From Caldivirga maquilingensis IC-167 (lineage in GTDB: Archaea; Thermoproteota; Thermoprotei; Thermoproteales; Thermocladiaceae): DNA of 32,000 nucleotides. Shown one piece after another: positions 1,486 through 24,564 of this stretch. Numbering within the stretch: position 1 is the stretch's first letter; the number at the start of each line of letters is the position of its first letter. Made by a program: the position numbers and the translations under genes. Location: positions 1,500,001 through 1,532,000 of the forward strand of contig NC_009954.1 in assembly GCF_000018305.1 (NCBI RefSeq), given 5' to 3'. The notes below the pieces were generated by a model that saw only the letters and a list, made by a program, of their open reading frames with translations, was not told where the DNA came from and searched no databases.

Positions 1486-2493
1486 ATGATTAACGTGGGT
1501 AGGATTAAGCTTAGTTTTGCGGGTATTCGAGTTGATTTCGTTGATAGGGAGTGGGCTCTTAGGCGTATTGAGAAATGGGCTGAGGGAGGTACTTATCCCG
1601 TTCAGGTTGTTTATGGTCCTGAGGGTTGTGGTAAGACTGCTTGGCTTAGGCAGTCTGTGGAGTTGCTTAGGGGTTTGGGTTTTGATGTTGTTTACGTTAA
1701 TCCAATTAATAGGGAGTTTTTAACGGGATTCAATGTTTTGAGGGATAGGTTCCTTGCCGTTATTAAGGAGACTATTAGCCAGGATGCGTTAGGTAGATTG
1801 GTTTGGTTAGCCTTCGATGTGGCTAAGGAGTTGATTAAGGTTACTAGGGGTAGGGTGGCTGTTATTGTTGATGATGCATTCCAGGTAATTGGGGTTAAGG
1901 AATCAACACTCTACGTTAAAGCACTACTAAACCTAATAGAATACCCACCAGAACAATACGAAAAAATAGTGGCCGTAACCGCTACCAGTGAGGGAGTCTC
2001 GAAGAGTGAGATTGGTAGGCATAGGTGGGCGAATTTACTAACAATGTGGAATATGACTAAGGATGGTTTTAAGGAGCTTTATGATCAAATACCAGGCGAT
2101 AAACCAAGTCTTGAGGAATTATGGAAACTAACTGGGGGAAATCCATGGATGCTTGAAATGCTCTATGAGGCCCACTGGAGTGTTGATCAAGTGGTTAATA
2201 GGATTATTAGGAGTAAGGGGTTGATAAGCTTCATTCAATCACTCAGTGAAAACGATAAGAAACTGCTTATGAAGGCATTAGAGGACCCGGACACACTCAT
2301 GAGTAGGGATGGGGTAATGCTCATGAATAAGTTAGTGGAGTTGAACCTAATAATCGACAACATATACCCCAGGGACGAGTACCTATGGGTGGATTCACCA
2401 CCACCTGAGAGGGATAATGAACTAGGTATTGGTAAGTATACGGCATGGCAAAGCCCACTCCACAGGGAGGCTGTAAGGAGGGTATTAAGTTAA
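1486..2493 (+). CDS. Archaeal ATPase family protein (PF01637/COG1672-like AAA-type NTPase with C-terminal wHTH-like region), paralog 1 of 4
   Basis: 335 aa. Walker A is YGPEGCGKTAWL and Walker B is VAVIVDDAFQ. The VTATSEG sensor-like motif and the C-terminal LGIGKYTAWQSPLHREAVRRVL tail are shared with ORFs 13623, 15554 and 17345. Confidence 0.8.
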   Translation: MINVGRIKLSFAGIRVDFVDREWALRRIEKWAEGGTYPVQVVYGPEGCGKTAWLRQSVELLRGLGFDVVYVNPINREFLTGFNVLRDRFLAVIKETISQDALGRLVWLAFDVAKELIKVTRGRVAVIVDDAFQVIGVKESTLYVKALLNLIEYPPEQYEKIVAVTATSEGVSKSEIGRHRWANLLTMWNMTKDGFKELYDQIPGDKPSLEELWKLTGGNPWMLEMLYEAHWSVDQVVNRIIRSKGLISFIQSLSENDKKLLMKALEDPDTLMSRDGVMLMNKLVELNLIIDNIYPRDEYLWVDSPPPERDNELGIGKYTAWQSPLHREAVRRVLS

Positions 2494-3547: not shown

Positions 3548-5908
3548 GTGATTGCAGCAAATAGTGTTATGAGCGGGGTCATGAAGGCAGTAATACTACT
3601 CCTTGCAGTAACACTACTGGTGACTACCGTGGTTTATGCGCAGCAGACTTTCACAGTTATTAATGCTGAATCAAGCACGTACATATATGCACCTGGAATA
3701 CCAGTGTTCAACCCCTACACACCCAGTAATCTAGTGGGTGTTGTTTCCACGTGGGTTCCCCTAGCGTTCTATAACCCAGTTACTAATCATTTCTGGCCTA
3801 TTCTTGCTGAGAATTGGACTATTCAGGTTTTGCCTAATGGTTCAGGTATTTTGACTGTTTACCTTAGGAGGGGCTTGTATTGGTTTAATGGTTCAGCGGT
3901 AATGCCTTTCACTGCTTGGGATGTTTACACATACTTCTATATTGGTGTTAAGGCGTTTAAATGGTACTACCCATACATGTTACCTCAATATGCTGATGAA
4001 GACATTAGGGTATTGGATAACTATACTATTCAATTCCTATTCCAGAAATGGAGCCCAACAGAGTGGATATTCTTGCTAGCAAGCCAGATTAGTACACCAT
4101 ACTCAGTATGGGAACCAATAGTGGATAAACTCAAAACAATGAACGTTACTCAGACGGCAAAGTACTCAACGAACGTAACGGAGTTTGTACCACCGTACTG
4201 GGGTTTAAGCCCATACTACTTAACCTTCATTAGCACTAATACTGTTGTTGAGAAGCTTGAGCCCATGTACTTTAACGGTAAGCCGTTATTAGCCATTTGG
4301 GATGAATTATTCCCATTCAACACATTCAACTACTACCCTGAAGTAGAGTCAGTGTACCCTGGTGGTAATACTCAAGACTTAGCCCTTGAAATCGCTGGTA
4401 AGGCTAATTGGGCATACGTTGGCTTATCATCACAGCAGATAGAGACAGCAATGCAGCATGGGTTTAAGAACATTAACCTTTACGCATGGTCAACCTACGC
4501 TATCGCCATTAACGCCTACAACTTCCCAACCAATAACATGTGGCTTAACCTTAAGTTTAGGCAAGCATTATTATGGGTCCTTAATAGGACTGAAATGGCA
4601 GCTGCATGGGGCTTACCTGGTGTACCTAATTCATCATGGATACTGCCTCTATGGCGTAACATACCAAGCCCAGACTACATACTCTCCACGTATCCTCAGC
4701 CAATACAGAACATGGTGTATGATTACATGACGTATACCGTTAATTGGACTAAGGCCGCTGAAATACTTGAGAGTGCTGGTTTCTATGAGAAGAATGGGCA
4801 ATGGTATACTCCAGGTGGTCAACCAATTAAGATGACGCTAATGATGCCTGCCCAATTCACTAACCAGGTCGCCGCTGTTTCTAATGCTGCGGAGCAGTTT
4901 AGTATCTTTGGTATACCAACCACTACACTTGCTGAGGATGTTGCAACATACTCAAGTCATATACTGATAACTGGTGATTACCAGGCTGCTGATTACTTCG
5001 GGCCTGGTTTAGTAAGTTACTACACTGGTTGGTCAATGTGGGTTAATCCCTTCGACAGTAACCTATTCATAAACACATCATTGCCTTACCCATTCCAGTG
5101 GCCTAATGGAACATGCACACCAGTGACGTTATCATTACCCATGCCTAACTCCACTATAGTTACATGCATTAACTCAACCCTCGGTTGGATTAACATAACC
5201 AATGCTGAGTACGCCTTCTACTCAGCCGTACCAGGTAGTCCACAGTATGAGGAGGCTGTGGAGGTATTGTTTGCATGGTGGAATTACTTTGTGCCTCAAC
5301 TAGAGTGGGGTGAGAAGCTTGAGCCGCAGCAGTGGGATCCTAATGTATTTGACTTGGATTGGGCGTATGAATGCTCCAATGCACCAACCGTTAATATGGC
5401 TATTGGTCCAGCCAACCTAATAGCTCAATACGTGGTTATGCCGCCTCAGCAGGTTTGGGGTGTTCCAGGTGTTTCAGGTGGCGTTTGGATGCCTGGTCCA
5501 TTATACTTCGGTGGTGTTGTTCCTCCTGGCGTAATACCACCATTAGCGGAAGCTATGCTTAATGGTTCACTTTGGACTAAGTACGCCAATTACGCAAACT
5601 TCCTCGGCATAACACCAGGCAGCTTTAACTTAGCTTGCGTTGCATCGTACTTCCATACAATATACACTCCAGTAACCGCATCAACCACTACCTCAACAAC
5701 CACTGTTACTTCAACTGCTGTTGCTACTGTGACTAGTACTGCCACTGTAACATCAACAAGCACAGTAGTAAGCACAACAACCACTACGGCTGTAAGCACA
5801 GTAACAATCACTAAACCAGTAGTATCAACAACACTAGTAATAGGAATAGTAATCATAGTAATAGTCATAGCAGCAGTAGCAGCAATAATAGTGTTAAGGA
5901 GGAGGTAA
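3548..5908 (+). CDS. ABC-transporter family-5 extracellular solute-binding protein (oligopeptide/oligosaccharide type) with Thr/Ser-rich linker and C-terminal membrane anchor
   Basis: 786 aa with an N-terminal signal/TM (AVILLLAVTLLVTTVVYA). The SBP_bac_5-like core is PILAENWTIQ...LTVYLRRGLYWFNGSAVMPFTAWDVYTYF. The C-terminus has a T/S/V-rich linker, then a hydrophobic helix (LVIGIVIIVIVIAAVAAIIVL) and RRR. There are many N-x-S/T sequons. The true start is probably ATG 3569. Confidence 0.75.
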   Translation: MIAANSVMSGVMKAVILLLAVTLLVTTVVYAQQTFTVINAESSTYIYAPGIPVFNPYTPSNLVGVVSTWVPLAFYNPVTNHFWPILAENWTIQVLPNGSGILTVYLRRGLYWFNGSAVMPFTAWDVYTYFYIGVKAFKWYYPYMLPQYADEDIRVLDNYTIQFLFQKWSPTEWIFLLASQISTPYSVWEPIVDKLKTMNVTQTAKYSTNVTEFVPPYWGLSPYYLTFISTNTVVEKLEPMYFNGKPLLAIWDELFPFNTFNYYPEVESVYPGGNTQDLALEIAGKANWAYVGLSSQQIETAMQHGFKNINLYAWSTYAIAINAYNFPTNNMWLNLKFRQALLWVLNRTEMAAAWGLPGVPNSSWILPLWRNIPSPDYILSTYPQPIQNMVYDYMTYTVNWTKAAEILESAGFYEKNGQWYTPGGQPIKMTLMMPAQFTNQVAAVSNAAEQFSIFGIPTTTLAEDVATYSSHILITGDYQAADYFGPGLVSYYTGWSMWVNPFDSNLFINTSLPYPFQWPNGTCTPVTLSLPMPNSTIVTCINSTLGWINITNAEYAFYSAVPGSPQYEEAVEVLFAWWNYFVPQLEWGEKLEPQQWDPNVFDLDWAYECSNAPTVNMAIGPANLIAQYVVMPPQQVWGVPGVSGGVWMPGPLYFGGVVPPGVIPPLAEAMLNGSLWTKYANYANFLGITPGSFNLACVASYFHTIYTPVTASTTTSTTTVTSTAVATVTSTATVTSTSTVVSTTTTTAVSTVTITKPVVSTTLVIGIVIIVIVIAAVAAIIVLRRR
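5675..5815 (+). repeat. Low-complexity ACN/GTN codon repeat encoding the Thr/Ser/Val-rich stalk of the binding protein
   Basis: It encodes TASTTTSTTTVTSTAVATVTSTATVTSTSTVVSTTTTTAVSTVTITKP. The antisense shadow ORF 5590..5970 is an artefact of this repeat. Confidence 0.8.
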
Positions 5909-8719: not shown

Positions 8720-8729
8720 GGTTTAACCA

Positions 8730-13622: not shown

Positions 13623-14645
13623 ATGAGGCGCATTAAGCTAAGATTCTCAGGGCAGGAGATTGAATTCACAGACCGTGAAGTAGCCATTAGGCAGATTGAG
13701 AAATTGGCTGAGAAGGGTACGTGGAACCCAGTAGTCATATACGGGCCTGAGGGTTGCGGTAAGTCCGCGTTCTTAAAGCAAGCTGTTGAGGTTCTTGGGG
13801 AGTATGATTACTCTGTTGTTAAGGTAAGTCCACTTGAGGATGAGTCCAATGAGAAGTTAAGGTACTCTGAGGAGTTGAGGGGATTGTTCAGGGACATAAT
13901 GACCCGCATACCCACCCCCTTCAATGATGCGTCAGCCTTAATTGACATAGCTATCTCACTACTCTACGATGTGGTGAGGAGGAGGATTAGGCGAAAAATA
14001 GCCCTACTAGCCGATGACGTATTCCAGGCCATTGGCCTAGACAAGGCAGAACTACTAGTTAAAAGACTCCTAAACATGATAGAGTACTCATCGGTTGATT
14101 ATGAAAGGATTGTGGTGATAGTGGCCACAAGTGAGGGGGTGACTTGGGGGCGTATTGGGCGTCATAGGTGGGCTGAGATAATGGCAATGTGGAACATGCC
14201 CAGGGAGGGGTTTGGGAAGCTTTACAACGCATTGCCTGGGCCGAAACCACCATTTGAGGAAGTATGGAGGTGGACGGGCGGGAACCCTAAGGCATTGGAA
14301 ATGCTGTATAAGAAGGGATGGGATATAAATAATGTGGTGAATGAAGTAATCTTTCAACGTAAAGTAACGGAGCTAGTAAGTCAGCTGAACGAGACGGAAA
14401 AGGAGATACTGGAGCAGGCATTGGAGGATCCAGACGTATTACTGAGAAGAATCCGCGATGGAGAAAAACTACTGAACACGCTAATAGACATGAACCTCGT
14501 ATTGAGAGTGCCTGAATTCAGGACTGAGTACTTATGGGTCGACCAACCACCACCTGAGAGGGATCTTGGACTCGGCATTGGCAGGTACTACACGTGGCAG
14601 ACGCCGCTGCACAGGGAGGCTGTGAGGAGAGCCTTGGAAAACTGA
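13623..14645 (+). CDS. Archaeal ATPase family protein (PF01637-like), paralog 2
   Basis: 340 aa. Walker A is YGPEGCGKSAFL and Walker B is IALLADDVFQ. VATSEG and the LGIGRYYTWQTPLHREAVRRAL tail are present. Confidence 0.85.
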   Translation: MRRIKLRFSGQEIEFTDREVAIRQIEKLAEKGTWNPVVIYGPEGCGKSAFLKQAVEVLGEYDYSVVKVSPLEDESNEKLRYSEELRGLFRDIMTRIPTPFNDASALIDIAISLLYDVVRRRIRRKIALLADDVFQAIGLDKAELLVKRLLNMIEYSSVDYERIVVIVATSEGVTWGRIGRHRWAEIMAMWNMPREGFGKLYNALPGPKPPFEEVWRWTGGNPKALEMLYKKGWDINNVVNEVIFQRKVTELVSQLNETEKEILEQALEDPDVLLRRIRDGEKLLNTLIDMNLVLRVPEFRTEYLWVDQPPPERDLGLGIGRYYTWQTPLHREAVRRALEN

Positions 14646-14800
14646 ACATGTTAACGCTAATTCATGGATTATTAAATGAGAGTAATGTGGAGTACACTGT
14701 TCAGTTTAACCATAGCCCTCAAGTACTAGTTAAAGTAATTGAATCAAGTCATGTTGCAGTACACTACCATTCCTAAGGAAATAGAATTAGACTATTTAGA

Positions 14801-15226
14801 GTGAGCGGCGAGTACCCTGCTATTCTTAGGAGGAGGGCCGAGGCCATGCTGGCACTAGCTCAGAGGTTACTGAATGAGGGTGAGTATGATCTGGCAGTAC
14901 TCAATGCGGAGTACGCAGCACAACTATACCTCAAAAGCCTACTCTATAGGTTAACTGGGGAGGAGTGGCGAGGGCACGGTATACGTGAACTCCTTGGGGC
15001 ACTGGCCGTGGCGTTAAAAAACCTAAACCAGGATGAAGGGGCTGATGAGGTGGCGGAGTACGTTAGGAGGTATAGGGCGTATCTAGCGGAGTTGGAGGAG
15101 GGGCATGTTAGGTCCGTGTACGGTGTTTACAGCTACGGGAGGGACCAGGCGGAGGCCCTGGTCTCCACGGCAGGAAACCTCATAAGCTTCCTCCAAAAAA
15201 TAGAGAGGGGGGTTTTCGGCGAATGA
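14801..15226 (+). CDS. HEPN domain protein (PF05168 type), partner of the downstream minimal nucleotidyltransferase
   Basis: 141 aa. LNEGEYDLAVLNAEYAAQLYLKSLLYRLTG...GHGIRELL and LEEGHVRSVYG...DQAEALV fit the HEPN four-helix pattern. No canonical Rx4-6H motif is visible. It starts at a GTG and has an ATGA overlap with the next gene. Confidence 0.7.
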   Translation: MSGEYPAILRRRAEAMLALAQRLLNEGEYDLAVLNAEYAAQLYLKSLLYRLTGEEWRGHGIRELLGALAVALKNLNQDEGADEVAEYVRRYRAYLAELEEGHVRSVYGVYSYGRDQAEALVSTAGNLISFLQKIERGVFGE

Positions 15227-15552
15227 TGGATGAGAGGTTAAGCATGCTCAGGGAGTGGAGGGAATGGGCGAGGGCGGTGGCGGAGGCGGTGAAGAGGGTT
15301 AGGGGGGATGCGGAGGTTTACGTAATTGGGGGTGCAGTCGAGGGTAGGCTTACGGTACTAAGCGACATAGATGTACTCATAGCCCTACCACAAAGCCCAA
15401 GCCTCCAGGAGGCTGCAAAACTAAGGGCAGAGGTATGGGTTGAGATGGAGAGGATGGGACTACCACCACACTTACCAATAGAGCTGCACATAATAGGTAC
15501 GGAACAACTAGCCAGGTACATCAAGGGGAAGCCCGTGGTGAGGTTAGCGTAG
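15223..15552 (+). CDS. Minimal nucleotidyltransferase (MNT, Pol-beta superfamily)
   Basis: 109 aa. VYVIGGAVEGRLTVLSDIDVLIA matches the G[GS]x9-13DxD motif. The stop codon lies 1 nt before the start of ATPase paralog 3. Confidence 0.8.
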   Translation: MMDERLSMLREWREWARAVAEAVKRVRGDAEVYVIGGAVEGRLTVLSDIDVLIALPQSPSLQEAAKLRAEVWVEMERMGLPPHLPIELHIIGTEQLARYIKGKPVVRLA

Positions 15553-15553
15553 C

Positions 15554-16579
15554 ATGAAGCGGGTAAAACTCAGGTTTGCGGACCGTGAGGTGGAGTTCGT
15601 GGATAGGGAGGTGGCAATAAGGCAAATTGAGGAATTGGCTGGAAAAGGCACATGGTGGCCCCTGGTAATCTACGGGCCTGAGGGTTGCGGGAAATCAGCA
15701 CTCCTTAAACAAGCCATTGAGGTGCTTAGAGAATATGGTTACGAAGTTTCATACATAAGCCCACTGTCCAGGTCTGGGGAGGATAGGTTCACCCTCACAG
15801 AGGGATTGAGGCGGTTAGTAACGGGCGTTGGCTCACTGCTAATTGGCGATGCATCAAGACTGATTAACATAGCCGTGGAGTTACTCTATGACGCGGTCAG
15901 GAAAAGGCTCACAGGGAGGATAGCCTTATTAGCCGATGATGTCTTCCAAGCCATTGGACTAGATAAAGCGGAATTGCTCGTAAAGGGACTACTAAACATG
16001 GTAGAGTACCCATCAGTTGATTATGAGAAAATCGTCATACTCGTATCCTCAAGTGAAGGAATAACCTGGGAACGTATTGGGCGTCATAGGTGGGCTGAGA
16101 TAAAGATCATGTGGAGCATGCCCAAGGAGGGGTTTAGGCAATTATATGAGCAAGTACCGGGACCAAAGCCGGACTTTGAACAAGTATGGAGATGGACTGG
16201 TGGAAACCCAGAAATGTTAGAGAGACTCTATGGGGCAGGCTGGGACATTAACGGCATAATCAACGACATGATTAAGGACAGGAAACTAGACATTATGGTG
16301 AAAACCCTAGACAGGGAGCAGGTGCAGATACTAAGGCGGGCCATTGAGGACCCAGATGTGATTTATGATGAGGCGGCTAGGGCTATGCCGCTAATGGATA
16401 AATTAATCGAGAATAACCTAATCATCAGGATATGGTACAGGGAGCAAAGGGTGTGGATCGATCAACCACCTGAAAAAGACCCAGAACTGGGCATAGGCAC
16501 CCACTTCGCCTGGCAGACGCCAATGCACAGGGAGGCCGTGAGGAGGGTGCTGGGCAATGAACTTGAAAGGCATAGATGA
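15554..16579 (+). CDS. Archaeal ATPase family protein (PF01637-like), paralog 3
   Basis: 341 aa. It has YGPEGCGKSALL, IALLADDVFQ and LGIGTHFAWQTPMHREAVRRVL. It shares a 31-nt identical tract with paralog 2. Confidence 0.85.
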   Translation: MKRVKLRFADREVEFVDREVAIRQIEELAGKGTWWPLVIYGPEGCGKSALLKQAIEVLREYGYEVSYISPLSRSGEDRFTLTEGLRRLVTGVGSLLIGDASRLINIAVELLYDAVRKRLTGRIALLADDVFQAIGLDKAELLVKGLLNMVEYPSVDYEKIVILVSSSEGITWERIGRHRWAEIKIMWSMPKEGFRQLYEQVPGPKPDFEQVWRWTGGNPEMLERLYGAGWDINGIINDMIKDRKLDIMVKTLDREQVQILRRAIEDPDVIYDEAARAMPLMDKLIENNLIIRIWYREQRVWIDQPPEKDPELGIGTHFAWQTPMHREAVRRVLGNELERHR

Positions 16580-16967
16580 AAACTACGTGACAAGCCTAAT
16601 GAGGGACATTGAGGGTGTAATAAATGAAATCGTAAACATATCCTCAAAACCATTCAATGAACTATCCACTGCGGAGAAATACGCAATTAGATACGGCATA
16701 ATAGTAATCGCAGAAGCACTAACAGCCCTGGGCATCGAGCCCGAACCCCCAATCCACGCACTCAGGGTACTAAGGGACAACGGACTTTTAACCCTAAACG
16801 AGTGTGATGAACTCGAAAGGCTCATAAGGCTAAGGAACCTCCTCGTACATAGGTACTGGACCGTGGATGATAGGAGGATTTACGAAAACATAAAGGGAGA
16901 CTTCAAACACATACTCAACCTAATTGATAGATTAAAGAGGGTGCAAAACCATGACAACAGTATTTAA
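16557..16967 (+). CDS. hepT: DUF86/HepT-type HEPN toxin
   Basis: 136 aa. RLIRLRNLLVHRYWTVDDRRIYE contains the canonical Rx4H (RNLLVH) motif of DUF86 HEPN RNases. It overlaps the ATPase 3' end by 23 nt; an alternative start is ATG 16599. Confidence 0.8.
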   Translation: MNLKGIDENYVTSLMRDIEGVINEIVNISSKPFNELSTAEKYAIRYGIIVIAEALTALGIEPEPPIHALRVLRDNGLLTLNECDELERLIRLRNLLVHRYWTVDDRRIYENIKGDFKHILNLIDRLKRVQNHDNSI

Positions 16968-17340
16968 GTACTACAGGCTTAATGAGGAGGAGAGGAGGAG
17001 GGTCGCCGAGAAACTGAGGGAGGTCCTCGTAACCGAGGGGGTGAAGTTAGCAATAATCTTCGGAAGCTTCATAGAGCTAGGGAGCTTCAGGGACATAGAC
17101 ATCGCAGTATACCTAGAAGACCCAGGGGACCTTGACAAAATCCTAAGGCTAGGAGTAAAACTCGAAGACACAATCAAAATCCCGGTGGACGTAGTCCCAA
17201 TCCAGGAACTACCACCAAAGCTCAGGCATAAAATACTAACCAAGGGCATGGTCATACTAGAGGAACCAGGCATGTACGAGGCGCTATGGTCTCAAACAAT
17301 GGATGAATTAACAATAATGAACACAACAAACACCCACTGA
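16951..17340 (+). CDS. mntA: MntA-type nucleotidyltransferase antitoxin
   Basis: 129 aa. LAIIFGSFIELGSFRDIDIAVYL gives the GSx10DxD motif, and PVDVVPIQELPPKLRHKILTKG is also present. It overlaps hepT by 17 nt and stops 4 nt before ATPase paralog 4. Confidence 0.8.
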   Translation: MTTVFKYYRLNEEERRRVAEKLREVLVTEGVKLAIIFGSFIELGSFRDIDIAVYLEDPGDLDKILRLGVKLEDTIKIPVDVVPIQELPPKLRHKILTKGMVILEEPGMYEALWSQTMDELTIMNTTNTH

Positions 17341-17344
17341 GCAC

Positions 17345-18361
17345 ATGAAGAGGGTAAGGCTGAGGTTCGCTGGGCGCGAGGTGGAGTTCGTGGATAGAGA
17401 AGCCGCTATTAAGTGGATCGGGGAGCTGGCTGAGAGGGGCACCGGCTTAGTCCGCGTAGTTTATGGGCCCGAGGGTTGTGGTAAGTCTGCGTTGTTTAAG
17501 CAAGCCGTGGAGGTCCTCAGGGACCACGGCTACGAGGTCTCGTACATAAGCCCACTGTCTAGAGCCGATGAGGACAGGCTAATCCTCACCGAGGGGCTTA
17601 GGAAATTGTTCGTGGACCTTGGGTCCGTCTTCGTTGGTGACGCAGCAAGACTAATCGACACAGCCGTGAAATTGCTATACGACGCAGTGAGGAGGAGGCT
17701 TACAGGGAGGATAGCCCTACTCGCCGATGACGTATTCCAAGCAGTAGGGCTGGACAAAGCTGAGCTGTTAGTCAAAGGATTCCTAAACATGATAGAGTAC
17801 CCGCCGGTTGATTATGAGAAGATAGTCGTAATAGTGGCGTCGAGCGAAGGCGTCACAAGGGGGAGAGTGGGTAGGCACAGGTGGGCGTTTTTACACATCA
17901 TGTGGAACATGCCCAGGGAAGGCTTCGAGAAACTCTACGAGGAAATACCTGGGCCAAAGCCCCCGTTTGAAGACGTGTGGAAATGGACCGGTGGGAACCC
18001 CAAGGCGCTGGAAACCCTCTGGGAATTAAACTGGGACGTAGACAGATACGTAGACAACGTGATAAAGTCGAGAGAGCTTATGAAAATGGCGGCGGAGCTA
18101 AGCAGCGCAGAAACCGAAATACTGACACAGTCGCTGGATGACCCGGACGTCCTCTTAAAACGGTACAGGGAGGCCAAGGGACTCGTGCAGAGACTTATAG
18201 AGAACAACTTGATAATAGAGATATGGAAAAGGGACCAGGACTGGGTGGACGTGCCGCCGCCCGAGAGGGATCCCGAGCTGGGCATCGGAAAATACTTCGC
18301 CTGGCAAACACCAATGCACAGGGAAGTGGTAAAGAGGGTACTCGAGGAAACAAAAACATAA
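17345..18361 (+). CDS. Archaeal ATPase family protein (PF01637-like), paralog 4
   Basis: 338 aa. It has YGPEGCGKSALF, IALLADDVFQ and LGIGKYFAWQTPMHREVVKRVL. The 5' end is about 60% GC by hand count. Confidence 0.85.
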   Translation: MKRVRLRFAGREVEFVDREAAIKWIGELAERGTGLVRVVYGPEGCGKSALFKQAVEVLRDHGYEVSYISPLSRADEDRLILTEGLRKLFVDLGSVFVGDAARLIDTAVKLLYDAVRRRLTGRIALLADDVFQAVGLDKAELLVKGFLNMIEYPPVDYEKIVVIVASSEGVTRGRVGRHRWAFLHIMWNMPREGFEKLYEEIPGPKPPFEDVWKWTGGNPKALETLWELNWDVDRYVDNVIKSRELMKMAAELSSAETEILTQSLDDPDVLLKRYREAKGLVQRLIENNLIIEIWKRDQDWVDVPPPERDPELGIGKYFAWQTPMHREVVKRVLEETKT

Positions 18362-18383: not shown

Positions 18384-18941
18384 ATGGCAACCATAACAAT
18401 ACCCAAGAAACTATACGAAGCACTAAGGAAACACGGAATAGACGTAGAGACAAAGGCAATTGAGGCACTACTAAAAGAAGCCCAACTAGACCCCAATGAA
18501 GAAGCCGAGATACACCTAGAACTAGCACAAAAACTCCTCAATGAAGGCGAAGCACTGATCGAGAAGGACCCCATACAAGCAGGCGAGAAGCTGTATAAGG
18601 CGGCCGAGGAAAGCGTCAAGGCGCTAGCCATACACTACAACCTAAAGGACATACTCGAAAAAGCGAGAGATAGAGGTAGATGGACAGTTACGGAGCTCGA
18701 AAAAGCAGTCCTCCAGATCTCGAGCAGAGCCGGCGAGTGGTTCAGAAGAGCCTGGGACGCAGCATGGACACTACATGTATGGGGATTCCACGAAGCAAAA
18801 TTCGACAGCGAGGACGTGAGGGAGAGGGAGCCCGACATTAAGAGAATAATTGAGGAGGCGATAAAAGCGATAGGCAGGGACGGGGAGAACAAAGACTTTA
18901 AAGACACCACGGACAATAAACACAGTGAAACTACACATTAA
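18384..18941 (+). CDS. PaREP1-like protein (archaeal PaREP1/PaREP8 family, HEPN-clan-like helical protein)
   Basis: 185 aa. EAEIHLELAQKLLNEGEALIEKDPIQAGEKLYKAAEESVKALA...RGRWTV...WFRRAWDAAWTLHVWGFHEAKFDSEDV resembles my recollection of the PaREP1 consensus. No Rx4-6H motif is visible. Confidence 0.55.
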   Translation: MATITIPKKLYEALRKHGIDVETKAIEALLKEAQLDPNEEAEIHLELAQKLLNEGEALIEKDPIQAGEKLYKAAEESVKALAIHYNLKDILEKARDRGRWTVTELEKAVLQISSRAGEWFRRAWDAAWTLHVWGFHEAKFDSEDVREREPDIKRIIEEAIKAIGRDGENKDFKDTTDNKHSETTH

Positions 18942-19848
18942 GAACTGGAGAAGCATAGAGGAAGTAGAGATAGAACTAAAGCCAGTAACAATAATCATGG
19001 GGCCAAACGACGCAGGGAAATCAAGCCTCGCATACGCACCGTACTTCCTAACAAAAACCATCAAGTGGAGAGACGCAAACAAAGTACTAAAATTACTATA
19101 CGGCACAGAACTAAACAACATCGCAAGGCACGAATACGACAAACCACAATACCCAGTAATAATCGAAGTAGACGGAGCACGCTTCAAGGCTCAAAACCCC
19201 AACGATGTAAAGAAAGCCGACATAGAGATAGCTGGGGAAAGTCCCTGGAACGACGGCTACCTACTACCATCGGGAAGGCTTACCTTCATGAAAATGCTAC
19301 GAATAGTGCCTAGAATCCTCAGACAGATAACAAGAACACGAGACTATTCAGCATTTCCACCACCGATGTACCTATTCCTCGATGATTTAGTGAGGATTCA
19401 CGGGATTGGCCCCCTACTACTGGAGCATGAACTAACCGAGTACACAGACCCATTTGCAAAAGCAAAACTACCACTAAACCTAGCACCAGACGGAACCACA
19501 GACCACTCACTAATAAACCTCTTCATAAACAACGTCCAGGAAGGCAGCCTACTAATCATCGAGGAACCAGAAATACACAAAAACCCAACCCTAGTGATAG
19601 AACTCACAAGACAAATAACACAGGAAGCAATAAACAAAAAACTAACAATAATAATAACAACACACAGCGACATAATACCACAAACAATAGCCAAAACCGT
19701 GGAAGAAGGCAAAACAAAGCCGAACAACGTAGCAATCTACTACCTAGAGAGAAAACCCTGGACACAGGCAAGGGAACTAAAGATCCACGAAGACGGCACA
19801 ATAGAGGAACTACCAGACGTGGAGAAAATAATCACGGAATTATTCTAA
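18925..19848 (+). CDS. Compact ABC/SMC-type ATPase (AAA_15/AAA_21-like, no coiled coil)
   Basis: 307 aa. NWRSIEEVEIELKPVTIIMGPNDAGKSSL gives the N-terminal strand and Walker A. LAPDGTTDHSLINL is signature-like. LLIIEEPEIHKNPTLV gives Walker B and the EEPE.h.hP motif typical of AAA_21. IIITTHSD is the H-loop. It overlaps the upstream gene by 17 nt. Confidence 0.7.
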   Translation: MKLHIKNWRSIEEVEIELKPVTIIMGPNDAGKSSLAYAPYFLTKTIKWRDANKVLKLLYGTELNNIARHEYDKPQYPVIIEVDGARFKAQNPNDVKKADIEIAGESPWNDGYLLPSGRLTFMKMLRIVPRILRQITRTRDYSAFPPPMYLFLDDLVRIHGIGPLLLEHELTEYTDPFAKAKLPLNLAPDGTTDHSLINLFINNVQEGSLLIIEEPEIHKNPTLVIELTRQITQEAINKKLTIIITTHSDIIPQTIAKTVEEGKTKPNNVAIYYLERKPWTQARELKIHEDGTIEELPDVEKIITELF

Positions 19849-19849
19849 C

Positions 19850-20404
19850 ATGACCCTACACGTAATCCTAGACCACTCAGCACTCATACCCTGCGGAGAC
19901 AAGCCAAAGGAGGAGAAAGAGGCGATAAGAGAGATCATGAATAGGATCATGGACATAGACGTAACATGGCACGTAACCGGATACTACCTTAAAGTACTAA
20001 ACACGGTACTCAACAAAAACCTAAAGAACCACCACCCACTCCCCAGGTTACTAGCATCATTAGAAAGAACAAAAAGATACCTCCTGGAACTCTCAAGGAG
20101 CAAACAAATTATATGCAAACCACGCAGGCTTAAAAGCTTAAAAATACACGTAATAGCAAGGAAGGCCTCGGAAAGGGTAGAGATACCCCATAGCGAAAGA
20201 CTAAACGAGATAAACAACGAAGACGTAGAAATAATCGCAATAGGATTGACAATTGCAGAAAGAATAAAAGGCGAAAAACCAGTGTACATAGTCACGACAG
20301 ACACAAAACTTGAAGAAGCCATAGATGAACTAGAGAAACTAGGAATAAAAGAATTAAAGGCAATAACACCAAGCAAATTATTAGAAGAATTACCAAAACA
20401 ATGA
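19850..20404 (+). CDS. PIN-like domain protein (putative nuclease partner of the ABC-type ATPase)
   Basis: 184 aa. It has an N-terminal HVILDHSAL (strand plus Asp), internal acidic positions (EEKEAIRE, NEDVEIIAIGL) and a C-terminal VYIVTTDTKLEEA, matching the spacing of the PIN acidic quartet by eye. It starts 1 nt after the ATPase stop. Confidence 0.5.
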   Translation: MTLHVILDHSALIPCGDKPKEEKEAIREIMNRIMDIDVTWHVTGYYLKVLNTVLNKNLKNHHPLPRLLASLERTKRYLLELSRSKQIICKPRRLKSLKIHVIARKASERVEIPHSERLNEINNEDVEIIAIGLTIAERIKGEKPVYIVTTDTKLEEAIDELEKLGIKELKAITPSKLLEELPKQ

Positions 20405-20416
20405 AAGCATAGAAGC

Positions 20417-21508
20417 ATGAGGATAGTACACGTAGCACCATTTTATAAACCGGTAATAGGCGGCGTGGAGGAGGTAGTGCAAAGAATAGCGGAGTACACA
20501 GCAGCTAGGGGGCATGAGGTACACGTAATCACATACAATAGGCTCAGGACAGGAGGCAAAGGTGCACTACCAAGGGAGGAATGGATCAATGGGGTGCATG
20601 TAATAAGGCTGAAACCAAACTTAACATGGAGTCACGGAACATACAGTAGGGAACTACCTGAAGTACTTAGGAAACTAAAGCCAGACCTAGTCCATGTGCA
20701 CGTGTGGAGGCACCCACATGTAATCCAGGTGGCAAGGCTAAGGAGGGAGATGGGATTCAAAGCGATACTGCATGGTCATGCACCATTCCATAAACTAAAC
20801 CAAGTGGGGCCAATAACCTGGACATATTATAAACTCGTAGACACAACGCTAAGAAGCATCCTAAAGAATTACGACACATACATAGCATTAACGAAACATG
20901 AAGCAGAAACAATAAGGAGAATGGGACTAGAAGAAGACAAAATAATGGTAATACCGAATGGAATAAACCAGGATCAATGCATACTAAGCAATGAAAGAGA
21001 GGACATGGTACTTTACCTGGGTAGAATCAGTAAGGTAAAGAACATTGAATTACTAGTAAAGGCCGCGAAATACATAAAGCATGCACAATTAGTAATTGCA
21101 GGGCCAGATGAAGGACTAATAAATACAATACTACAATATGCAGGAAAACACAACATAGAAGTAAAGTATCTAGGCGCAGTGAGTGAGGAAAAGAAACATG
21201 AATTATACCTAAAAGCCAAGGCCTATGCACTACCATCAATATATGAACCATTTGGAATAACACTACTCGAAGCAGGAATACACGCAACACCAAGCGTGAT
21301 AACGGGGAATGGGGGACAAGTCTACGCAGCACCACCAGGTAAGGCAAGCCTATGGGCAGAACCAAAGCCGGAGAAATACGCTGAAGCCATCATACAACTG
21401 CTAACCGACCAAGAGCTACATAGGAGATTAAGCCAAGGCGCTCTTCAGCACGCTGAACAACACCTATGGAGCAAAATACTACCAAGGTACGAGGAAATAT
21501 ATGGCTAA
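20417..21508 (+). CDS. Glycosyltransferase family 4 (GT-B, Glyco_trans_4 + Glycos_transf_1)
   Basis: 363 aa. The N-terminus is MRIVHVAPFYKPVIGGVEEVV...GHEVHVIT. The C-terminal motif is PSIYEPFGITLLEAGIHATPSVIT (Ex7E). Confidence 0.85.
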   Translation: MRIVHVAPFYKPVIGGVEEVVQRIAEYTAARGHEVHVITYNRLRTGGKGALPREEWINGVHVIRLKPNLTWSHGTYSRELPEVLRKLKPDLVHVHVWRHPHVIQVARLRREMGFKAILHGHAPFHKLNQVGPITWTYYKLVDTTLRSILKNYDTYIALTKHEAETIRRMGLEEDKIMVIPNGINQDQCILSNEREDMVLYLGRISKVKNIELLVKAAKYIKHAQLVIAGPDEGLINTILQYAGKHNIEVKYLGAVSEEKKHELYLKAKAYALPSIYEPFGITLLEAGIHATPSVITGNGGQVYAAPPGKASLWAEPKPEKYAEAIIQLLTDQELHRRLSQGALQHAEQHLWSKILPRYEEIYG

Positions 21509-22493
21509 ACCATTAATCAGTGTAGTAATTACGGCATATAATAGGAGGGAGTACTTAAGGTACGCTGTTAAATCGGTGCTAAACCAAACCTTGGATAGAA
21601 ACTTCTATGAAGTAATAGTCATAAAGAACTTCGAAGACTCATACACAGACAAATTAATTGAAGGAGTGGGTAGAACAATAAACGTAGACATAGCATCAAT
21701 AGGCGCAAAAATAGCCCTGGGAATAAGGGAGTCTGAGGGTGAAGTGGTGGCATTCCTTGAAGATGACGACTTATGGCATAGTAGGAAGCTAGAGCATGTA
21801 GCCGAGGCATTCAGAAATAACAATGACCTAATGTACTACCACCACAATACATACGCAATAGATAAATACGGAAACATAATACATGACTCGCTCATTGAGA
21901 GGACGAACATAAATAATTACGTATATGCCAGCAACGAAGATGAGAAAATGAAAGTATTCAAACAGTATGGTTGGGGCCTTGGTCTCAGGAACAGCTCCAT
22001 AGCCGTAAGAAGGGATGTATACGAAAAATACGCACCTATAATAAGACTCCTCCCAGATGCGGTGGATGTGGCACTATACCTGGTAGCGTTAAGCGTAAAG
22101 GGTTCAATAATTCATGAACCACGGAGATTAATGTTCTTTAGAATACACGAGACAAACACAAGTAGCGTGAGATTCGCACCACAGAGTGAAAGGCTACATA
22201 GGGTAGCCGTGAACTCTGTAAAACATACCATAGCAAGATATGCACTAGCAACCATCGCCAGGCACATAAAGCCCCAACTAACCAGATACGCAGGCTATGA
22301 CGAAGCATCAATAGTAGCGGGCATATTAGCAAATTGGAGGGGATACACGGCAGTAATGAGTTTAAATTTATTAAATCATTGTAAATCACTAACATGCCTA
22401 GCAACGGCAATACTAGGCATTATAAACACAATAAGCCCAGAACTAACGAAGAGAATCATCACACTATACTACACTAAAGGATTCAGACTCTAA
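21501..22493 (+). CDS. Glycosyltransferase family 2 (GT-A)
   Basis: 330 aa. It has ISVVITAYNRREYLRYAVKSVLNQT and the DxD motif AFLEDDDLW. It overlaps the upstream gene by 8 nt. Confidence 0.85.
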   Translation: MAKPLISVVITAYNRREYLRYAVKSVLNQTLDRNFYEVIVIKNFEDSYTDKLIEGVGRTINVDIASIGAKIALGIRESEGEVVAFLEDDDLWHSRKLEHVAEAFRNNNDLMYYHHNTYAIDKYGNIIHDSLIERTNINNYVYASNEDEKMKVFKQYGWGLGLRNSSIAVRRDVYEKYAPIIRLLPDAVDVALYLVALSVKGSIIHEPRRLMFFRIHETNTSSVRFAPQSERLHRVAVNSVKHTIARYALATIARHIKPQLTRYAGYDEASIVAGILANWRGYTAVMSLNLLNHCKSLTCLATAILGIINTISPELTKRIITLYYTKGFRL

Positions 22494-23632: not shown

Positions 23633-24564
23633 AAGCCCTAATAACAGGAGGGGCAGGATTCATAGGAAGCCACCTAGTAGATAAACTACTAGCAAGGGGC
23701 TACCAAGTCAAGGTAATAGACAACCTAAGCACGGGAAGAATAGAAAACATAACCCACGTACTAAACAAAATACAATTCACCAAAACAGACCTAAAAAACA
23801 TAGAAGACACACTAAAAGCACTCAAAGACACAGACGTAATATTCCACTTCGCGGCAAACCCGGAGGTCAGGGTCAGCACAGTCAGCCCTGAGGTGCACTT
23901 CAACGAGAACGTGGTCGCCACGTTCAACCTGCTCGAGGCAATGAGGAGGATGGACGTGAGGGAGATTGTGTTCGCGTCGTCTAGCTCGGTCTACGGGGAG
24001 CCTGAGGAAATACCGGTAAGCGAGGACGCGCCAACAAGGCCCGTCTCGGTCTACGGAGCGAGTAAGGCGGCCTGCGAAAATCTGATACACGCGTACTCAA
24101 GGCTCTACGGGATGAAGGCGGTGATCCTGAGGTACGCGAACGTGGTTGGGCTGAGGCTGAGGCACGGTGTAATATACGACTTAATCATGAAATTAAGGAA
24201 GGACCCAACCAGGCTGGAGGTGCTCGGCGATGGGACCCAGGTCAGGAGCTACATACACGTGGATGACGCCGTGGAGGCAACGTTAATAGCCCACGAGAGG
24301 ACTGGAGGCGGCTACCACGTATTCAACGTGGCGAGCGAGGACTGGATAACCGTGGACGAAGTCGTAAACATAATCACGGAGGAACTCGGGGCAAAGCCAG
24401 AGATAATCCACAAACCAATCCTACATGGCGTTGGCTGGCCAGGGGACGTGAAGAGGATAGCCCTGAGGATAGACAGGCTCAGGGAGCTGGGCTTCAAGCC
24501 GAGAATGAATAGTAAAGAAGCCGTGAGGGTTACCGTAAAGGCACTAATCAGGGAATCAGGATAA
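23629..24564 (+). CDS. NAD-dependent epimerase/dehydratase (extended SDR; UDP-sugar 4-epimerase or decarboxylase-like)
   Basis: It has MKALITGGAGFIGSHLV, FASSSSVYG and YGASKAACE (YxxxK). I prefer ATG 23629, which forms an ATGA overlap with the upstream stop, over the ORF-track start 23575, whose 18-aa extension overlaps the GT4 gene. Confidence 0.85.
   Translation: MKALITGGAGFIGSHLVDKLLARGYQVKVIDNLSTGRIENITHVLNKIQFTKTDLKNIEDTLKALKDTDVIFHFAANPEVRVSTVSPEVHFNENVVATFNLLEAMRRMDVREIVFASSSSVYGEPEEIPVSEDAPTRPVSVYGASKAACENLIHAYSRLYGMKAVILRYANVVGLRLRHGVIYDLIMKLRKDPTRLEVLGDGTQVRSYIHVDDAVEATLIAHERTGGGYHVFNVASEDWITVDEVVNIITEELGAKPEIIHKPILHGVGWPGDVKRIALRIDRLRELGFKPRMNSKEAVRVTVKALIRESG

What the first reader, a model, noticed from the sequence alone, without database searches (positions are those of the whole stretch)
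1486..2493. Synonymous-codon style flips mid-gene in ATPase paralog 1 (NNT/NNG to NNA/NNC near 1900)
Seen:
- 1501-1620 is G+T 68% (T 42 and G 40 of 120), with third positions dominated by T (ggt att cga gtt gat ttc gtt...).
- 1901-1980 is A+C 71% (A 36 and C 21 of 80; tca aca ctc tac ... cta cta aac cta ata gaa tac cca cca gaa caa).
- The switch falls right after the Walker B region, which is conserved among all four paralogs.
- Similar but less sharp patchiness is visible in the binding-protein gene (T3-rich 3780-3960 versus A/C3-rich 3990-4200).

Inference: this suggests mosaic gene structure produced by gene conversion or recombination between paralogs or alleles of different compositional background.
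Basis: partly seen in the sequence, partly recalled or inferred. Interest (0 to 1): 0.45.

Follow-up and report, generated by a model that had tools for sequence, protein, structure and literature searches.

The report
Mirror-image codon patches in mosaic gene
An ATPase gene of the hot-spring archaeon Caldivirga maquilingensis switches abruptly from G/T-ending to A/C-ending codons; the two halves of the gene have different relatives, so the switch most likely marks a recombination joint between pieces carrying opposite strand-specific mutation biases, which are patchy throughout this group of archaea.

Summary
In the PF01637 ATPase gene at 1486-2493, codons 1-138 (1486-1899) end in G or T 83% of the time. 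Codons 139-165 (1900-1980) do so 7% of the time, and the rest 57%. The switch lies between 1899 and 1900, eight codons after the Walker B aspartates. It is synonymous and far beyond synonymous-shuffle expectation.

The two styles are mirror images at four-fold sites (T .71, G .14, A .10, C .05 against A .64, C .21). That is the same strand-asymmetric mutational equilibrium read from opposite DNA strands.

The patchiness is not specific to this gene. It runs through the window, including single-copy genes, and through Vulcanisaeta, Pyrobaculum and Desulfurococcales loci. It follows the DNA strand rather than the sense strand, and also shifts codon positions 1 and 2. E. coli and Nezhaarchaeales/Methanomethylicota controls lack it.

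The gene is a mosaic at protein level:
- The N-terminal module is closest to a V. thermophila protein (81%).
- The C-terminal module is closest to V. distributa proteins (about 70%).
- Breakpoint estimates (codons 123-164) bracket the switch.

No donor tract was found, and the three in-window paralogs are not donors. What causes the strand asymmetry remains inferred.

The parts
1486..2493 (+). PF01637 'archaeal ATPase' (ATPase_2) gene, 335 aa, from Caldivirga maquilingensis. The finding calls it paralog 1.
   Evidence: Pfam ATPase_2 E=7.4e-73, 245 bits against a cut-off of 33. It is 100% identical to an NCBI C. maquilingensis protein on a 2,077,567-bp contig.
1486..1899 (+). G/T-ending ('K') codon tract, codons 1-138. 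It begins at about the start codon and contains Walker A and Walker B.
   Evidence: Third positions are G/T in 111 of 133 informative codons. Positions 1 and 2 are also G/T-shifted (K1 0.61, K2 0.62). Four-fold sites are T .71, G .14, A .10, C .05. All sites are 68.8% G+T. The DNA upstream (1300-1450) is 40-50% G+T.
1615..1638 (+). Walker A motif, GPEGCGKT (codons 44-51).
   Evidence: Read directly from the sequence. E46, G47, C48, G49 and K50 are invariant in the 23-sequence alignment A1.
1855..1875 (+). Walker B motif, VAVIVDD (codons 124-130).
   Evidence: Read directly from the sequence. D129 and D130 are invariant in A1.
1900..1980 (+). A/C-ending ('M') codon tract, codons 139-165. The 5' edge is sharp and the 3' edge is less sharp.
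   Evidence: Third positions are G/T in 2 of 27 codons; K2 is 0.33. Four-fold sites are A .64, C .21, T .07, G .07. All sites are 70.4% A+C.
1981..2493 (+). Remainder of the gene, with mixed codon style. Its nearest relatives differ from those of the N-terminal module.
   Evidence: K3 is 0.57. Nearest relatives are P0022 and P0036 at about 70%, and P0003 ranks about 58th.
3779..3952 (+). Same phenomenon in a single-copy gene: a G/T-ending run in the solute-binding-protein gene (codons about 78-135).
   Evidence: K/m strings. Third positions are T 33, G 15, A 4, C 7. Shuffle p=0.003 for the gene.
22853..23860 (+). Same phenomenon crossing a gene boundary: an almost pure A/C-ending tract. It covers the 3' two-thirds of glycosyltransferase gene 22493-23632 and the first 95 or so codons of epimerase gene 23575-24564.
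   Evidence: K/m strings. Both genes have shuffle p<0.0005.
18384..24000 (+). A/C-skewed domain (PaREP1, an AAA_15 ATPase, glycosyltransferases). Its composition is the mirror image of the 1486-1899 tract.
   Evidence: K3 is 0.20-0.36 with T3 at 4-17%. Four-fold sites are A .61, C .18, G .14, T .07. AT skew reaches 0.5.
25221..29743 (+). Second A/C-skewed domain (glycosyltransferase cluster).
   Evidence: K3 is 0.22-0.34. Four-fold sites are A .59, C .20, G .11, T .09.
13623..18361 (+). Three further ATPase_2 paralogs (13623-14645, 15554-16579, 17345-18361), interleaved with HEPN/MNT pairs. They are not donors of the patches in paralog 1.
   Evidence: They are 45-48% identical in amino acids to paralog 1. 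Longest shared tracts with paralog 1 are not significant (p=0.13-0.91), whereas 13623 against 15554 gives p=0.001.

Best explanation
The gene is a recombinant mosaic within a large, frequently exchanging family of archaeal ATPase genes. Its pieces carry different states of a DNA-strand-specific mutational skew.

In Caldivirga and its relatives, one DNA strand of a region drifts towards T (and G) while its complement drifts towards A (and C). This shifts all unconstrained sites: third positions most, positions 1 and 2 and intergenic DNA as well. A gene piece that spent its history on the 'T-sink' strand uses NNT/NNG codons. A piece from the opposite orientation uses NNA/NNC.

Part of an open reading frame cannot be inverted on its own. 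Mirror-image states inside one frame are therefore most simply produced by homologous recombination between family members, or alleles, that evolved in opposite strand contexts. On this view the 1899|1900 switch is a recombination joint.

Status of each step:
- Shown: the flip, the mirror symmetry, the strand-level nature and lineage-wide spread of the skew, the protein-level mosaicism with a breakpoint interval that includes the flip, and exchange tracts in homologs.
- Inferred: that the joint and the codon switch are the same event, that the donors were oppositely oriented, and what drives the strand asymmetry. The driver could be replication-linked or other single-strand exposure with C deamination, A deamination and purine loss.
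For: 1. Flip and significance.

2. Mirror-image four-fold composition. The K tract is T .71, G .14, A .10, C .05. The M tract is A .64, C .21, T .07, G .07. The M-rich gene clusters are A .60, C .19, G .12, T .08.

3. The skew acts on DNA, not on codon choice.
- Gene-level K3 correlates with K1 (0.79) and K2 (0.69). Within genes, local K3 correlates with local K1+K2 at r=0.27-0.31. The purine and GC axes show nothing comparable.
- A 3.4 kb tract in Vulcanisaeta sp. AZ3 (L029) is 70-80% G+T on one strand, intergenic DNA included. Its genes have K3 of 0.92 and 0.95.

4. The skew follows the DNA strand, not the sense strand. Sense K3 of same-strand neighbours correlates at +0.66. For opposite-strand neighbours the values are -0.28 (Caldivirga and Vulcanisaeta), -0.48 (Pyrobaculum and Thermoproteus) and -0.35 (Desulfurococcales).

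5. It is lineage-wide and specific to the G/T-versus-A/C axis.
- Residual K3 autocorrelation is 0.10, 0.06, 0.04 and 0.03 at lags 1, 2, 3 and 5. Purine and GC third positions give about zero.
- It persists when the ATPase genes are excluded.
- It is present in Vulcanisaeta, Pyrobaculum, Thermoproteus and Desulfurococcales loci and absent in Nezhaarchaeales/Methanomethylicota loci.
- It is absent in E. coli, where gene-level K3 has an sd of 0.038 against 0.134 in the window.

6. Mosaic ancestry of this gene.

7. Exchange tracts in the family.
- L003 against L005: 97-98% nucleotide identity over about 100 codons (roughly aligned codons 160-260), inside genes that are otherwise 42-77% identical.
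- L080 genes 10001 and 11598: 97-98% identical over codons 41-80 and 101-120, below 60% over most of the stretch after codon 220. Their codon styles diverge over codons 181-240, from just before the drop in identity.
- Window paralogs 13623 and 15554: shared tract with p=0.001.

8. The K tract is not matched by its flanks, which are 40-55% G+T. This fits an imported piece.
Against: - No donor or near-identical tract exists in any searched collection. The best homolog is 70% identical. DNA of the key relative P0003 could not be retrieved.
- With the N-module 19% diverged from its nearest sampled relative, synonymous sites would be saturated if the exchange were that old. Either the real donor is unsampled and closer, or the skew is being maintained in place.
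- The protein breakpoint interval (123-164) is broad, because residues 121-170 are conserved in all homologs.
- The 27-codon A/C tract cannot be assigned an ancestry. It coincides with a family-wide mild dip in K3.
- Similar flips occur in single-copy genes and across gene boundaries. Those need allelic rather than paralog exchange, or an in-place process.
- The A/C style of the glycosyltransferase cluster is shared with the syntenic V. souniana cluster at 68% amino-acid identity. Skew states can therefore be stably maintained in place.
Confidence: 0.55

Rival explanations
1. In-place tract-wise mutation, with no exchange. A strand-asymmetric damage or repair process acts on tracts of 0.1-3 kb of DNA where they sit. 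One candidate is long-lived single-stranded DNA in recombination, replication or R-loop intermediates at 85 C and low pH, giving C-to-T, A-to-G and purine-loss changes on the exposed strand. The 1899|1900 switch would mark where the exposed strand changes.
For: - Tracts ignore gene boundaries and occur in single-copy genes.
- Positions 1 and 2 and intergenic DNA are also shifted.
- Substitutions between close Pyrobaculum and Vulcanisaeta sequences are weakly clustered by strand sign: z=-2.1, -1.8, -1.3 and -1.4, giving Stouffer z of about -3.3 by my own combination. Three control pairs show none.
- The AZ3 permease has K3 of 0.95, whereas its 72-74% identical homologs have normal K3 (0.41-0.52). 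Extreme skew can therefore arise after divergence.
Against: - This rival does not explain why the N and C modules have different nearest relatives.
- No known mechanism holds a mutation-bias boundary at one base pair inside a gene long enough to saturate both sides.
- The double-strand-break resection version predicts that sharp switches run G/T-rich to A/C-rich only. The counts are 3 against 3 and 3 against 4 (small numbers).
- The flanks of the K tract are not skewed.
Confidence: 0.27
2. Ordinary replication-strand skew plus rearrangement history. The two styles are leading-strand and lagging-strand equilibria, as in Borrelia. The patchwork reflects inversions, translocations and horizontal transfer of whole genes or clusters. 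The intragenic flip would be a rare by-product of exchange between inverted copies. This is a more specific version of the best explanation that names replication as the source.
For: - The skew follows the DNA strand and is mirror-symmetric.
- Thirteen-kb loci of Pyrobaculum sp. WP30 have internally coherent G+T fractions. The sign changes between 1.04-1.05 Mb (0.44) and 1.07-1.08 Mb (0.57).
- Strand-specific G/T-ending against A/C-ending codon usage is established for Borrelia (McInerney 1998 and Lafay 1999, as cited in PMC2839124).
- Pyrobaculum islandicum is listed in that paper among genomes with a large gap between modal and average codon usage.
Against: - Within the 32 kb window the plus-strand G+T fraction changes repeatedly on a 0.1-6 kb scale. 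That is far finer than any replichore.
- No genome-scale data were available for Caldivirga.
- By my recollection, replication skews reported for Crenarchaeota are weak. This was not tested here.
Confidence: 0.12
3. Selection on the mRNA or on translation: a codon ramp, tRNA usage, or an RNA structure pairing the G/U-rich segment with the A/C-rich segment.
For: - There is a family-wide positional K3 profile: higher in the first fifth of the gene, lower just after Walker B.
- Genes in several lineages show a mild 5'-to-3' decline in K3.
Against: - The RNA fold of 1780-2020 is no more stable than shuffles (z=+1.21).
- The family profile ranges only from 0.35 to 0.67, against 0.83 to 0.07 in this gene. 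Homologs place their runs at different positions.
- Selection on codons does not predict mirror-symmetric four-fold composition. It does not predict shifts at positions 1 and 2 and in intergenic DNA. It does not predict sign reversal for opposite-strand neighbours.
Confidence: 0.04
4. Chance, or an amino-acid composition artefact.
For: The stretch LYVKALLNLIEYPPE is rich in residues whose favoured codons end in A or C. The following stretch is rich in Arg, Gly and Trp.
Against: Shuffles that keep every amino acid in place give p<0.0005 and p<=0.003. The same amino acids use opposite codons in the two tracts.
Confidence: 0.01

Closest known systems
DNA-strand-specific mutational bias shaping codon usage (Borrelia burgdorferi and other bacteria; McInerney 1998, Lafay et al. 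1999, as cited in PMC2839124)
   Same: G/T-ending and A/C-ending codon preferences are mirror images on the two DNA strands. The amino-acid positions are also shifted. The sign depends on the DNA strand, not on the gene's function.
   Different: In Borrelia the state changes only at the origin and terminus, and whole genes belong to one class. Here it changes on a 0.1-6 kb scale, inside reading frames, in an archaeon. A link to replication direction has not been shown.
Heavy/light-strand asymmetry of vertebrate mitochondrial DNA (single-strand deamination during replication). This comparison rests on my own knowledge.
   Same: One strand is G+T-rich and the other A+C-rich. Third positions are nearly saturated, and genes on the opposite strand show the mirror style. 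This is a model for how single-strand exposure could drive the skew.
   Different: The mitochondrial asymmetry covers the whole molecule, with a gradient. Here there are short tracts with sharp edges. T is the sink at four-fold sites rather than the result of transitions alone.
Mosaic genes formed by homologous recombination or gene conversion (for example mosaic penicillin-binding-protein genes, or multigene-family conversion detected by GENECONV or maximum chi-square). This comparison rests on my own knowledge.
   Same: Blocks within one reading frame have different nearest relatives, with a significant maximum chi-square breakpoint. Near-identical tracts occur between otherwise divergent family members.
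   Different: For this gene no donor tract is known. The blocks are recognised by mirrored strand composition rather than by a step in divergence from a known donor.
Strand-coordinated clustered mutation at resected breaks (kataegis-type clusters). This comparison rests on my own knowledge.
   Same: Changes are strand-coordinated, and the affected strand can switch at a point.
   Different: Those clusters are sparse, recent events dominated by a single mutation type. Here composition is near equilibrium, includes transversions, and shows no polarity bias among sharp switches.
PF01637 ATPase_2 ('archaeal ATPase') family
   Same: Full-length HMM match, with Walker A GPEGCGKT and Walker B VAVIVDD. 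The family is multi-copy, and its genes sit beside HEPN/MNT pairs and PaREP1 genes, as in V. souniana.
   Different: Nothing unusual at the protein level. The finding concerns the DNA.

Membership tests
PF01637 ATPase_2 | Full-length match to the family HMM above the gathering score | tested here: met
   E=7.4e-73, 245.5 bits against a cut-off of 33.2; profile positions 1-225 of 225.
PF01637 ATPase_2 | P-loop NTPase Walker A and Walker B motifs | tested here: met
   GPEGCGKT at 1615-1638 and VAVIVDD at 1855-1875. These residues are invariant in A1.
Recombinant (mosaic) gene | Segments of the gene have significantly different nearest relatives | tested here: met
   For the N module, P0003 is nearest in 1993 of 2000 bootstraps. 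For the C module, P0003 has a median rank of 58 and the nearest relatives are P0022 and P0036. Identities in the N-terminal part and the rest are uncorrelated, r=-0.05.
Recombinant (mosaic) gene | Statistically supported breakpoint (maximum chi-square) | tested here: met
   Five triplets give p from 0.0005 to 0.005, with breakpoints at residues 123-164. The test is at protein level only.
Recombinant (mosaic) gene | An identified donor sharing an unusually long, near-identical nucleotide tract (GENECONV-type) | tested here: not met
   Against the three in-window paralogs p=0.13-0.91. The longest exact matches to any held sequence are 23-37 nt, in conserved motifs. No homolog above 70% identity exists in the protein database.
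Recombinant (mosaic) gene | Breakpoint coincides with the compositional switch | tested here: inconclusive
   The switch is at codon 138|139. Breakpoint estimates are 123/124, 123-137, 135/137 (twice) and 161/164. They are consistent with the switch but broad.
DNA-strand-specific mutational skew (Borrelia type) | G/T-ending and A/C-ending codon classes with mirror-image composition | tested here: met
   Four-fold site compositions.
DNA-strand-specific mutational skew (Borrelia type) | The sign follows the DNA strand, so opposite-strand neighbouring genes have opposite styles | tested here: met
   Same-strand neighbours r=+0.66. Opposite-strand neighbours r=-0.28, -0.48 and -0.35.
DNA-strand-specific mutational skew (Borrelia type) | Also affects non-synonymous positions and non-coding DNA | tested here: met
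   K3 correlates with K1 and K2. Intergenic DNA in L029 is G/T-rich.
DNA-strand-specific mutational skew (Borrelia type) | The sign switches at replication origins and termini and is uniform across a replichore | not testable with these tools
   Only 32 kb of Caldivirga is held, and the genome-collection scan did not return the source genome. Pyrobaculum WP30 loci give only a hint. Kb-scale flips inside the window argue against uniformity.
Transcription-associated strand asymmetry | The sense strand is consistently enriched in G+T, whatever DNA strand the gene is on | tested here: not met
   Mean sense K3 is 0.52, ranging from 0.20 to 0.95. Opposite-strand neighbours are anti-correlated.
Translational codon adaptation | The bias is confined to synonymous choice and tied to the gene rather than to the DNA tract | tested here: not met
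   Positions 1 and 2 and intergenic DNA are shifted. Tracts cross gene boundaries. The two styles are mirror-symmetric.

The most novel reading that the evidence does not exclude
Thermoproteales chromosomes are subject to a strong, tract-wise, strand-asymmetric mutational process that operates in place on stretches of 0.1-3 kb. It could arise from long-lived single-stranded DNA in recombination or replication intermediates at high temperature, with T as the sink on the exposed strand. It would write mirror-image codon 'dialects' irrespective of gene boundaries. The sharp intragenic flips would then mark the edges of single-strand exposure rather than joints between foreign pieces.
Probability: 0.25. 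Interest if true: 0.75.

Novelty: new variant of a known kind. Interest (0 to 1): 0.5.

Why it matters
The two ingredients, strand-specific mutational skew and recombination within gene families, are both known. What appears unusual is skew strong enough to push third positions to 5-95% G/T while being distributed as a kb and sub-kb patchwork inside reading frames, in a whole archaeal order. Five full-text literature searches found no description of this. The nearest was Pyrobaculum islandicum listed among genomes with a large gap between average and modal codon usage.

If the mosaic reading is right, mirrored codon style works as a built-in barcode. It would reveal recombination tracts and past orientation of DNA in organisms where close relatives are not sequenced.

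If the in-place reading is right, it points to a strong single-strand damage process in hyperthermophiles. That could be tested by mutation-accumulation sequencing.

In practice, this heterogeneity will confuse gene finders and composition-based detectors of horizontal transfer in these genomes.

Tried and rejected
- **RNA structure** pairing the G/U-rich and A/C-rich segments: rejected. The fold of 1780-2020 is no better than shuffles (z=+1.21).
- **Embedded non-coding RNA or tRNA:** none found in the window.
- **Assembly or sequencing artefact:** rejected. Two independent assemblies are identical to the window.
- **Strain variants to polarise substitutions:** none exist. The Logan contigs are the same strain.
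- **DNA of key sequences:** the nearest N-module relative P0003 and the source protein P0001 are not on record. The genome-collection scan did not return the Caldivirga genome.
- **Gene conversion from the three in-window paralogs:** not supported.
- **Shared internal switch in homologs:** not seen. Runs sit at different positions.
- **Transcription-associated asymmetry:** rejected by the anti-correlation of opposite-strand neighbours.
- **Polarity of sharp switches** predicted by a break-resection model: no bias, with small counts.
- **The extreme G/T tract in Vulcanisaeta sp. AZ3:** followed up hoping for a close orthologue to polarise the changes. Its permease is closest to Thermoplasmata proteins at only 72-74% identity, with normal composition. 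This shows that extreme skew is derived, but not how it arose.
- **Pyrobaculum spherical virus** as a possible skewed replicon: only moderately G/T-rich on its coding strand (56% G+T, K3 of 0.5-0.7). Uninformative.
- **Literature searches** for prior descriptions found nothing specific.
Full report
**What is there**

The window comes from Caldivirga maquilingensis. The protein encoded at 1486-2493 is 100% identical to an NCBI protein of that species on a 2,077,567-bp contig. The gene is a full-length member of Pfam PF01637, the 'ATPase domain predominantly from Archaea' (E=7e-73). Walker A (GPEGCGKT) lies at 1615-1638 and Walker B (VAVIVDD) at 1855-1875.

Three further paralogs lie at 13623-14645, 15554-16579 and 17345-18361. 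They are 45-48% identical to the first and 58-66% identical to each other. HEPN/nucleotidyltransferase pairs are interleaved with them. A PaREP1 gene and a glycosyltransferase cluster follow.

**Check of the observation**

I write K for G or T and M for A or C, and K3 for the fraction of codons ending in K.

A maximum-likelihood three-segment fit to third positions gives:
- Codons 1-138 (1486-1899): K3 0.83 (111 of 133 informative codons).
- Codons 139-165 (1900-1980): K3 0.07 (2 of 27).
- Codons 166-335: K3 0.57.

The first boundary is pinned to 1899|1900. The second is looser (codon 160-168). The likelihood gain of about 32-33 compares with a maximum of 12.2 in 300 shuffles that only permute synonymous codons within each amino acid. 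A cusum test with 2000 such shuffles gives p<0.0005.

The same amino acids use opposite codons on the two sides: GAG 8/8 against GAA 4/4, ATT 10/10 against ATA 2/2, CAG 4/4 against CAA, CTT/TTG against CTA/CTC. The step is the sharpest K/M step in the whole window.

Two independent public assemblies are identical to the window across this region, so it is not an artefact.

**The two styles are mirror images**

At four-fold degenerate sites:

| Region | T | G | A | C |
|---|---|---|---|---|
| K tract, 1486-1899 | .71 | .14 | .10 | .05 |
| M tract, 1900-1980 | .07 | .07 | .64 | .21 |
| A/C-rich genes, 18925-23632 | .07 | .14 | .61 | .18 |
| A/C-rich genes, 25221-29743 | .09 | .11 | .59 | .20 |

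The K composition is the reverse complement of the M composition. Selection on codons gives no reason for such symmetry. One strand-asymmetric mutational equilibrium seen from opposite strands does.

In line with this, codon positions 1 and 2 shift in the same direction. K1 and K2 are 0.61 and 0.62 in the K tract, against 0.48 and 0.33 in the M tract.

**The phenomenon is general in this lineage**

- Gene-level K3 in the window ranges from 0.20 to 0.66, with T3 as low as 4%.
- After removing gene and amino-acid effects, neighbouring codons share K/M style. The autocorrelation is 0.10, 0.06, 0.04 and 0.03 at lags 1, 2, 3 and 5. Purine/pyrimidine and GC/AT indicators show none. It holds with the ATPase genes excluded.
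- The same signal appears in loci from Vulcanisaeta, Pyrobaculum, Thermoproteus and Desulfurococcales that were fetched through homologs.
- It is absent in Nezhaarchaeales/Methanomethylicota loci and in a 50 kb E. coli control. There, gene K3 has an sd of 0.038 against 0.134 in the window.
- Gene-level K3 correlates with K1 (0.79) and K2 (0.69). Local K3 correlates with local K1+K2 within genes at r of about 0.3.
- Many other window genes contain long K or M runs. One almost pure M tract (about 22853-23860) runs across the boundary between two genes.
- Homologs of the ATPase in other genera also contain long K or M runs, but at different positions.
- The most extreme case found is in a Vulcanisaeta sp. 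AZ3 contig (L029). About 3.4 kb is 70-80% G+T on one strand, intergenic DNA included. It carries an amino-acid permease with K3 of 0.95. The permease's 72-74% identical homologs have ordinary composition.

**Strand of DNA, not sense strand**

Sense-strand K3 of adjacent genes is positively correlated when they share a strand: +0.66 in Caldivirga and Vulcanisaeta. It is negatively correlated when they are on opposite strands: -0.28 there, -0.48 in Pyrobaculum and Thermoproteus, and -0.35 in Desulfurococcales.

This rules out transcription-associated asymmetry and codon adaptation as the main cause. It places the phenomenon with DNA-strand-specific mutational skews of the Borrelia type, which were described for bacteria (cited in PMC2839124).

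Whether replication is the source could not be tested for Caldivirga. Loci of Pyrobaculum sp. WP30 show coherent 13 kb values with a sign change near 1.05-1.07 Mb. The window itself changes state on a 0.1-6 kb scale.

**Is the gene a mosaic?**

Independent protein-level evidence says yes.

- Residues 1-146 are 81% identical to V. thermophila P0003, with the next best at 70%.
- Residues 147-335 are only 61% identical to P0003. They are closest to V. distributa P0036 (70%) and P0022 (69%).
- Across about 120 homologs, identities in the N-terminal part and the rest are uncorrelated (r=-0.05).
- P0003 is the nearest N-module relative in 1993 of 2000 bootstraps, but ranks about 58th in the C module. 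The relationships are reciprocal.
- Maximum chi-square tests give p from 0.0005 to 0.005. Breakpoints fall at residues 123/124, 123-137, 135/137 (twice) and 161/164. This interval contains the codon switch at 138|139.

Exchange tracts are directly visible elsewhere in the family.

- Two V. distributa genes (L003, L005) are 97-98% identical over about 100 codons and 42-77% identical elsewhere.
- Two tandem V. souniana genes are 97-98% identical over codons 41-80 and 101-120, and below 60% over most of the stretch after codon 220. Their codon styles diverge over codons 181-240, from just before the drop in identity.
- Window paralogs 13623 and 15554 share a significant tract (p=0.001).

**Limits of the mosaic evidence**

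- No donor was found. Nothing above 70% identity exists in a database of 5.8 billion proteins.
- The three in-window paralogs share no significant tract with paralog 1.
- DNA of P0003 could not be obtained.
- The 27-codon M tract is too short to place.
- The nearest sampled relative of the N module is 19% diverged. An exchange that old would not preserve a frozen codon style. So either the true donor is unsampled, or the skew is maintained where it is.
- The A/C style of the glycosyltransferase cluster is shared with the syntenic V. souniana cluster at 68% amino-acid identity. Skew states can therefore be stable in place over long times.

**Rivals**

An in-place, tract-wise strand-asymmetric mutation process is the main rival.

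- In its favour: tracts that ignore gene boundaries, and weak strand-sign clustering of substitutions between close Pyrobaculum and Vulcanisaeta sequences that is absent in three control pairs.
- Against it: it does not explain the different ancestry of the two modules. Its break-resection version predicts a polarity of sharp switches that is not seen.

The other rivals fare worse.

- An mRNA-structure explanation fails (z=+1.21).
- No RNA gene is embedded in the region.
- The family-wide positional K3 profile is far too shallow to account for the flip (0.35-0.67).

**Verdict**

The gene is a mosaic, and the flip lies within the breakpoint interval.

I rate it a new variant of known kinds (strand-specific skew plus family recombination), of moderate interest.

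Noticed in passing
L029:1-3400 (Vulcanisaeta sp. AZ3 MAG, JZWU02000018.1), minus strand: About 3.4 kb is 70-80% G+T on one strand, intergenic DNA included. It carries an amino-acid permease (877-2466, K3 0.95, T3 0.62) and an eRF1-domain gene (190-864, K3 0.92). The permease's nearest homologs are Thermoplasmata proteins at 72-74% identity with normal composition. The tract may be a horizontally acquired or mis-binned island.
   Followed up: partly
window 538-1131 (-): A 197-aa ORF matches only part of the family-B DNA polymerase exonuclease domain (PF03104, E=4e-9). It looks like a truncated PolB fragment or stand-alone exonuclease remnant, and lies upstream of the ATPase gene on the opposite strand.
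   Followed up: no
window 3820: Two independent Logan assemblies (SRR253096, SRR9435970) both end exactly at window position 3820. That position is inside the solute-binding-protein gene and inside its G/T-rich run. The cause of the shared assembly break is unknown.
   Followed up: no
window 13623-14645 and 15554-16579: The tandem ATPase paralogs share a run of 15 consecutive matching variable sites (alignment nt 547-577, p=0.001). Paralogs 15554 and 17345 give p=0.04. This is evidence of gene conversion within the tandem trio.
   Followed up: partly
window 13200-30000 and L080 (V. souniana BMNM01000011.1): Gene order is conserved between genera: tandem ATPase_2 genes, PaREP1, a methyltransferase and a GT4/GT2 glycosyltransferase cluster. 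V. souniana has five ATPase_2 copies. The glycosyltransferase genes are A/C-ending in both genomes (T3 about 4%).
   Followed up: partly
L080:12656-13222 (+): A V. souniana PaREP1 gene shows its own sharp intragenic flip: about 50 mostly G/T-ending codons followed by about 75 A/C-ending codons.
   Followed up: no
window 14801-15552 and 16557-17340: Two HEPN-type/nucleotidyltransferase pairs (HEPN+NTP_transf_2 and HepT-like+Polbeta) are interleaved with the ATPase paralogs. The 15223-15552 gene has its own G/T run, mainly codons 10-32, followed by an A/C-rich stretch (shuffle p=0.0025).
   Followed up: no
window 7448-12346 (-): A MoxR-type operon (AAA_3 MoxR, a weak DUF58 match, DUF4350, DUF4129). 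The 7448-8719 gene flips from A/C-ending (codons 1-120) to G/T-ending (codons 121-290), p<0.0005.
   Followed up: no
L039, L076, L018, L041 (Pyrobaculum sp. WP30, 1.03-1.10 Mb): Genome-strand G+T fraction is 0.44-0.46 at 1.03-1.05 Mb and 0.53-0.57 at 1.07-1.10 Mb. This A/C-to-G/T sign change would fit a replication origin nearby. It was not checked against mapped origins.
   Followed up: no
L003 and L005 (V. distributa JCM 11216 / JCM 11217): Two ATPase_2 genes from different strains are 97-98% identical over about 100 codons (roughly aligned codons 160-260) and 42-77% identical elsewhere. This is a clear recombination tract within the family.
   Followed up: partly
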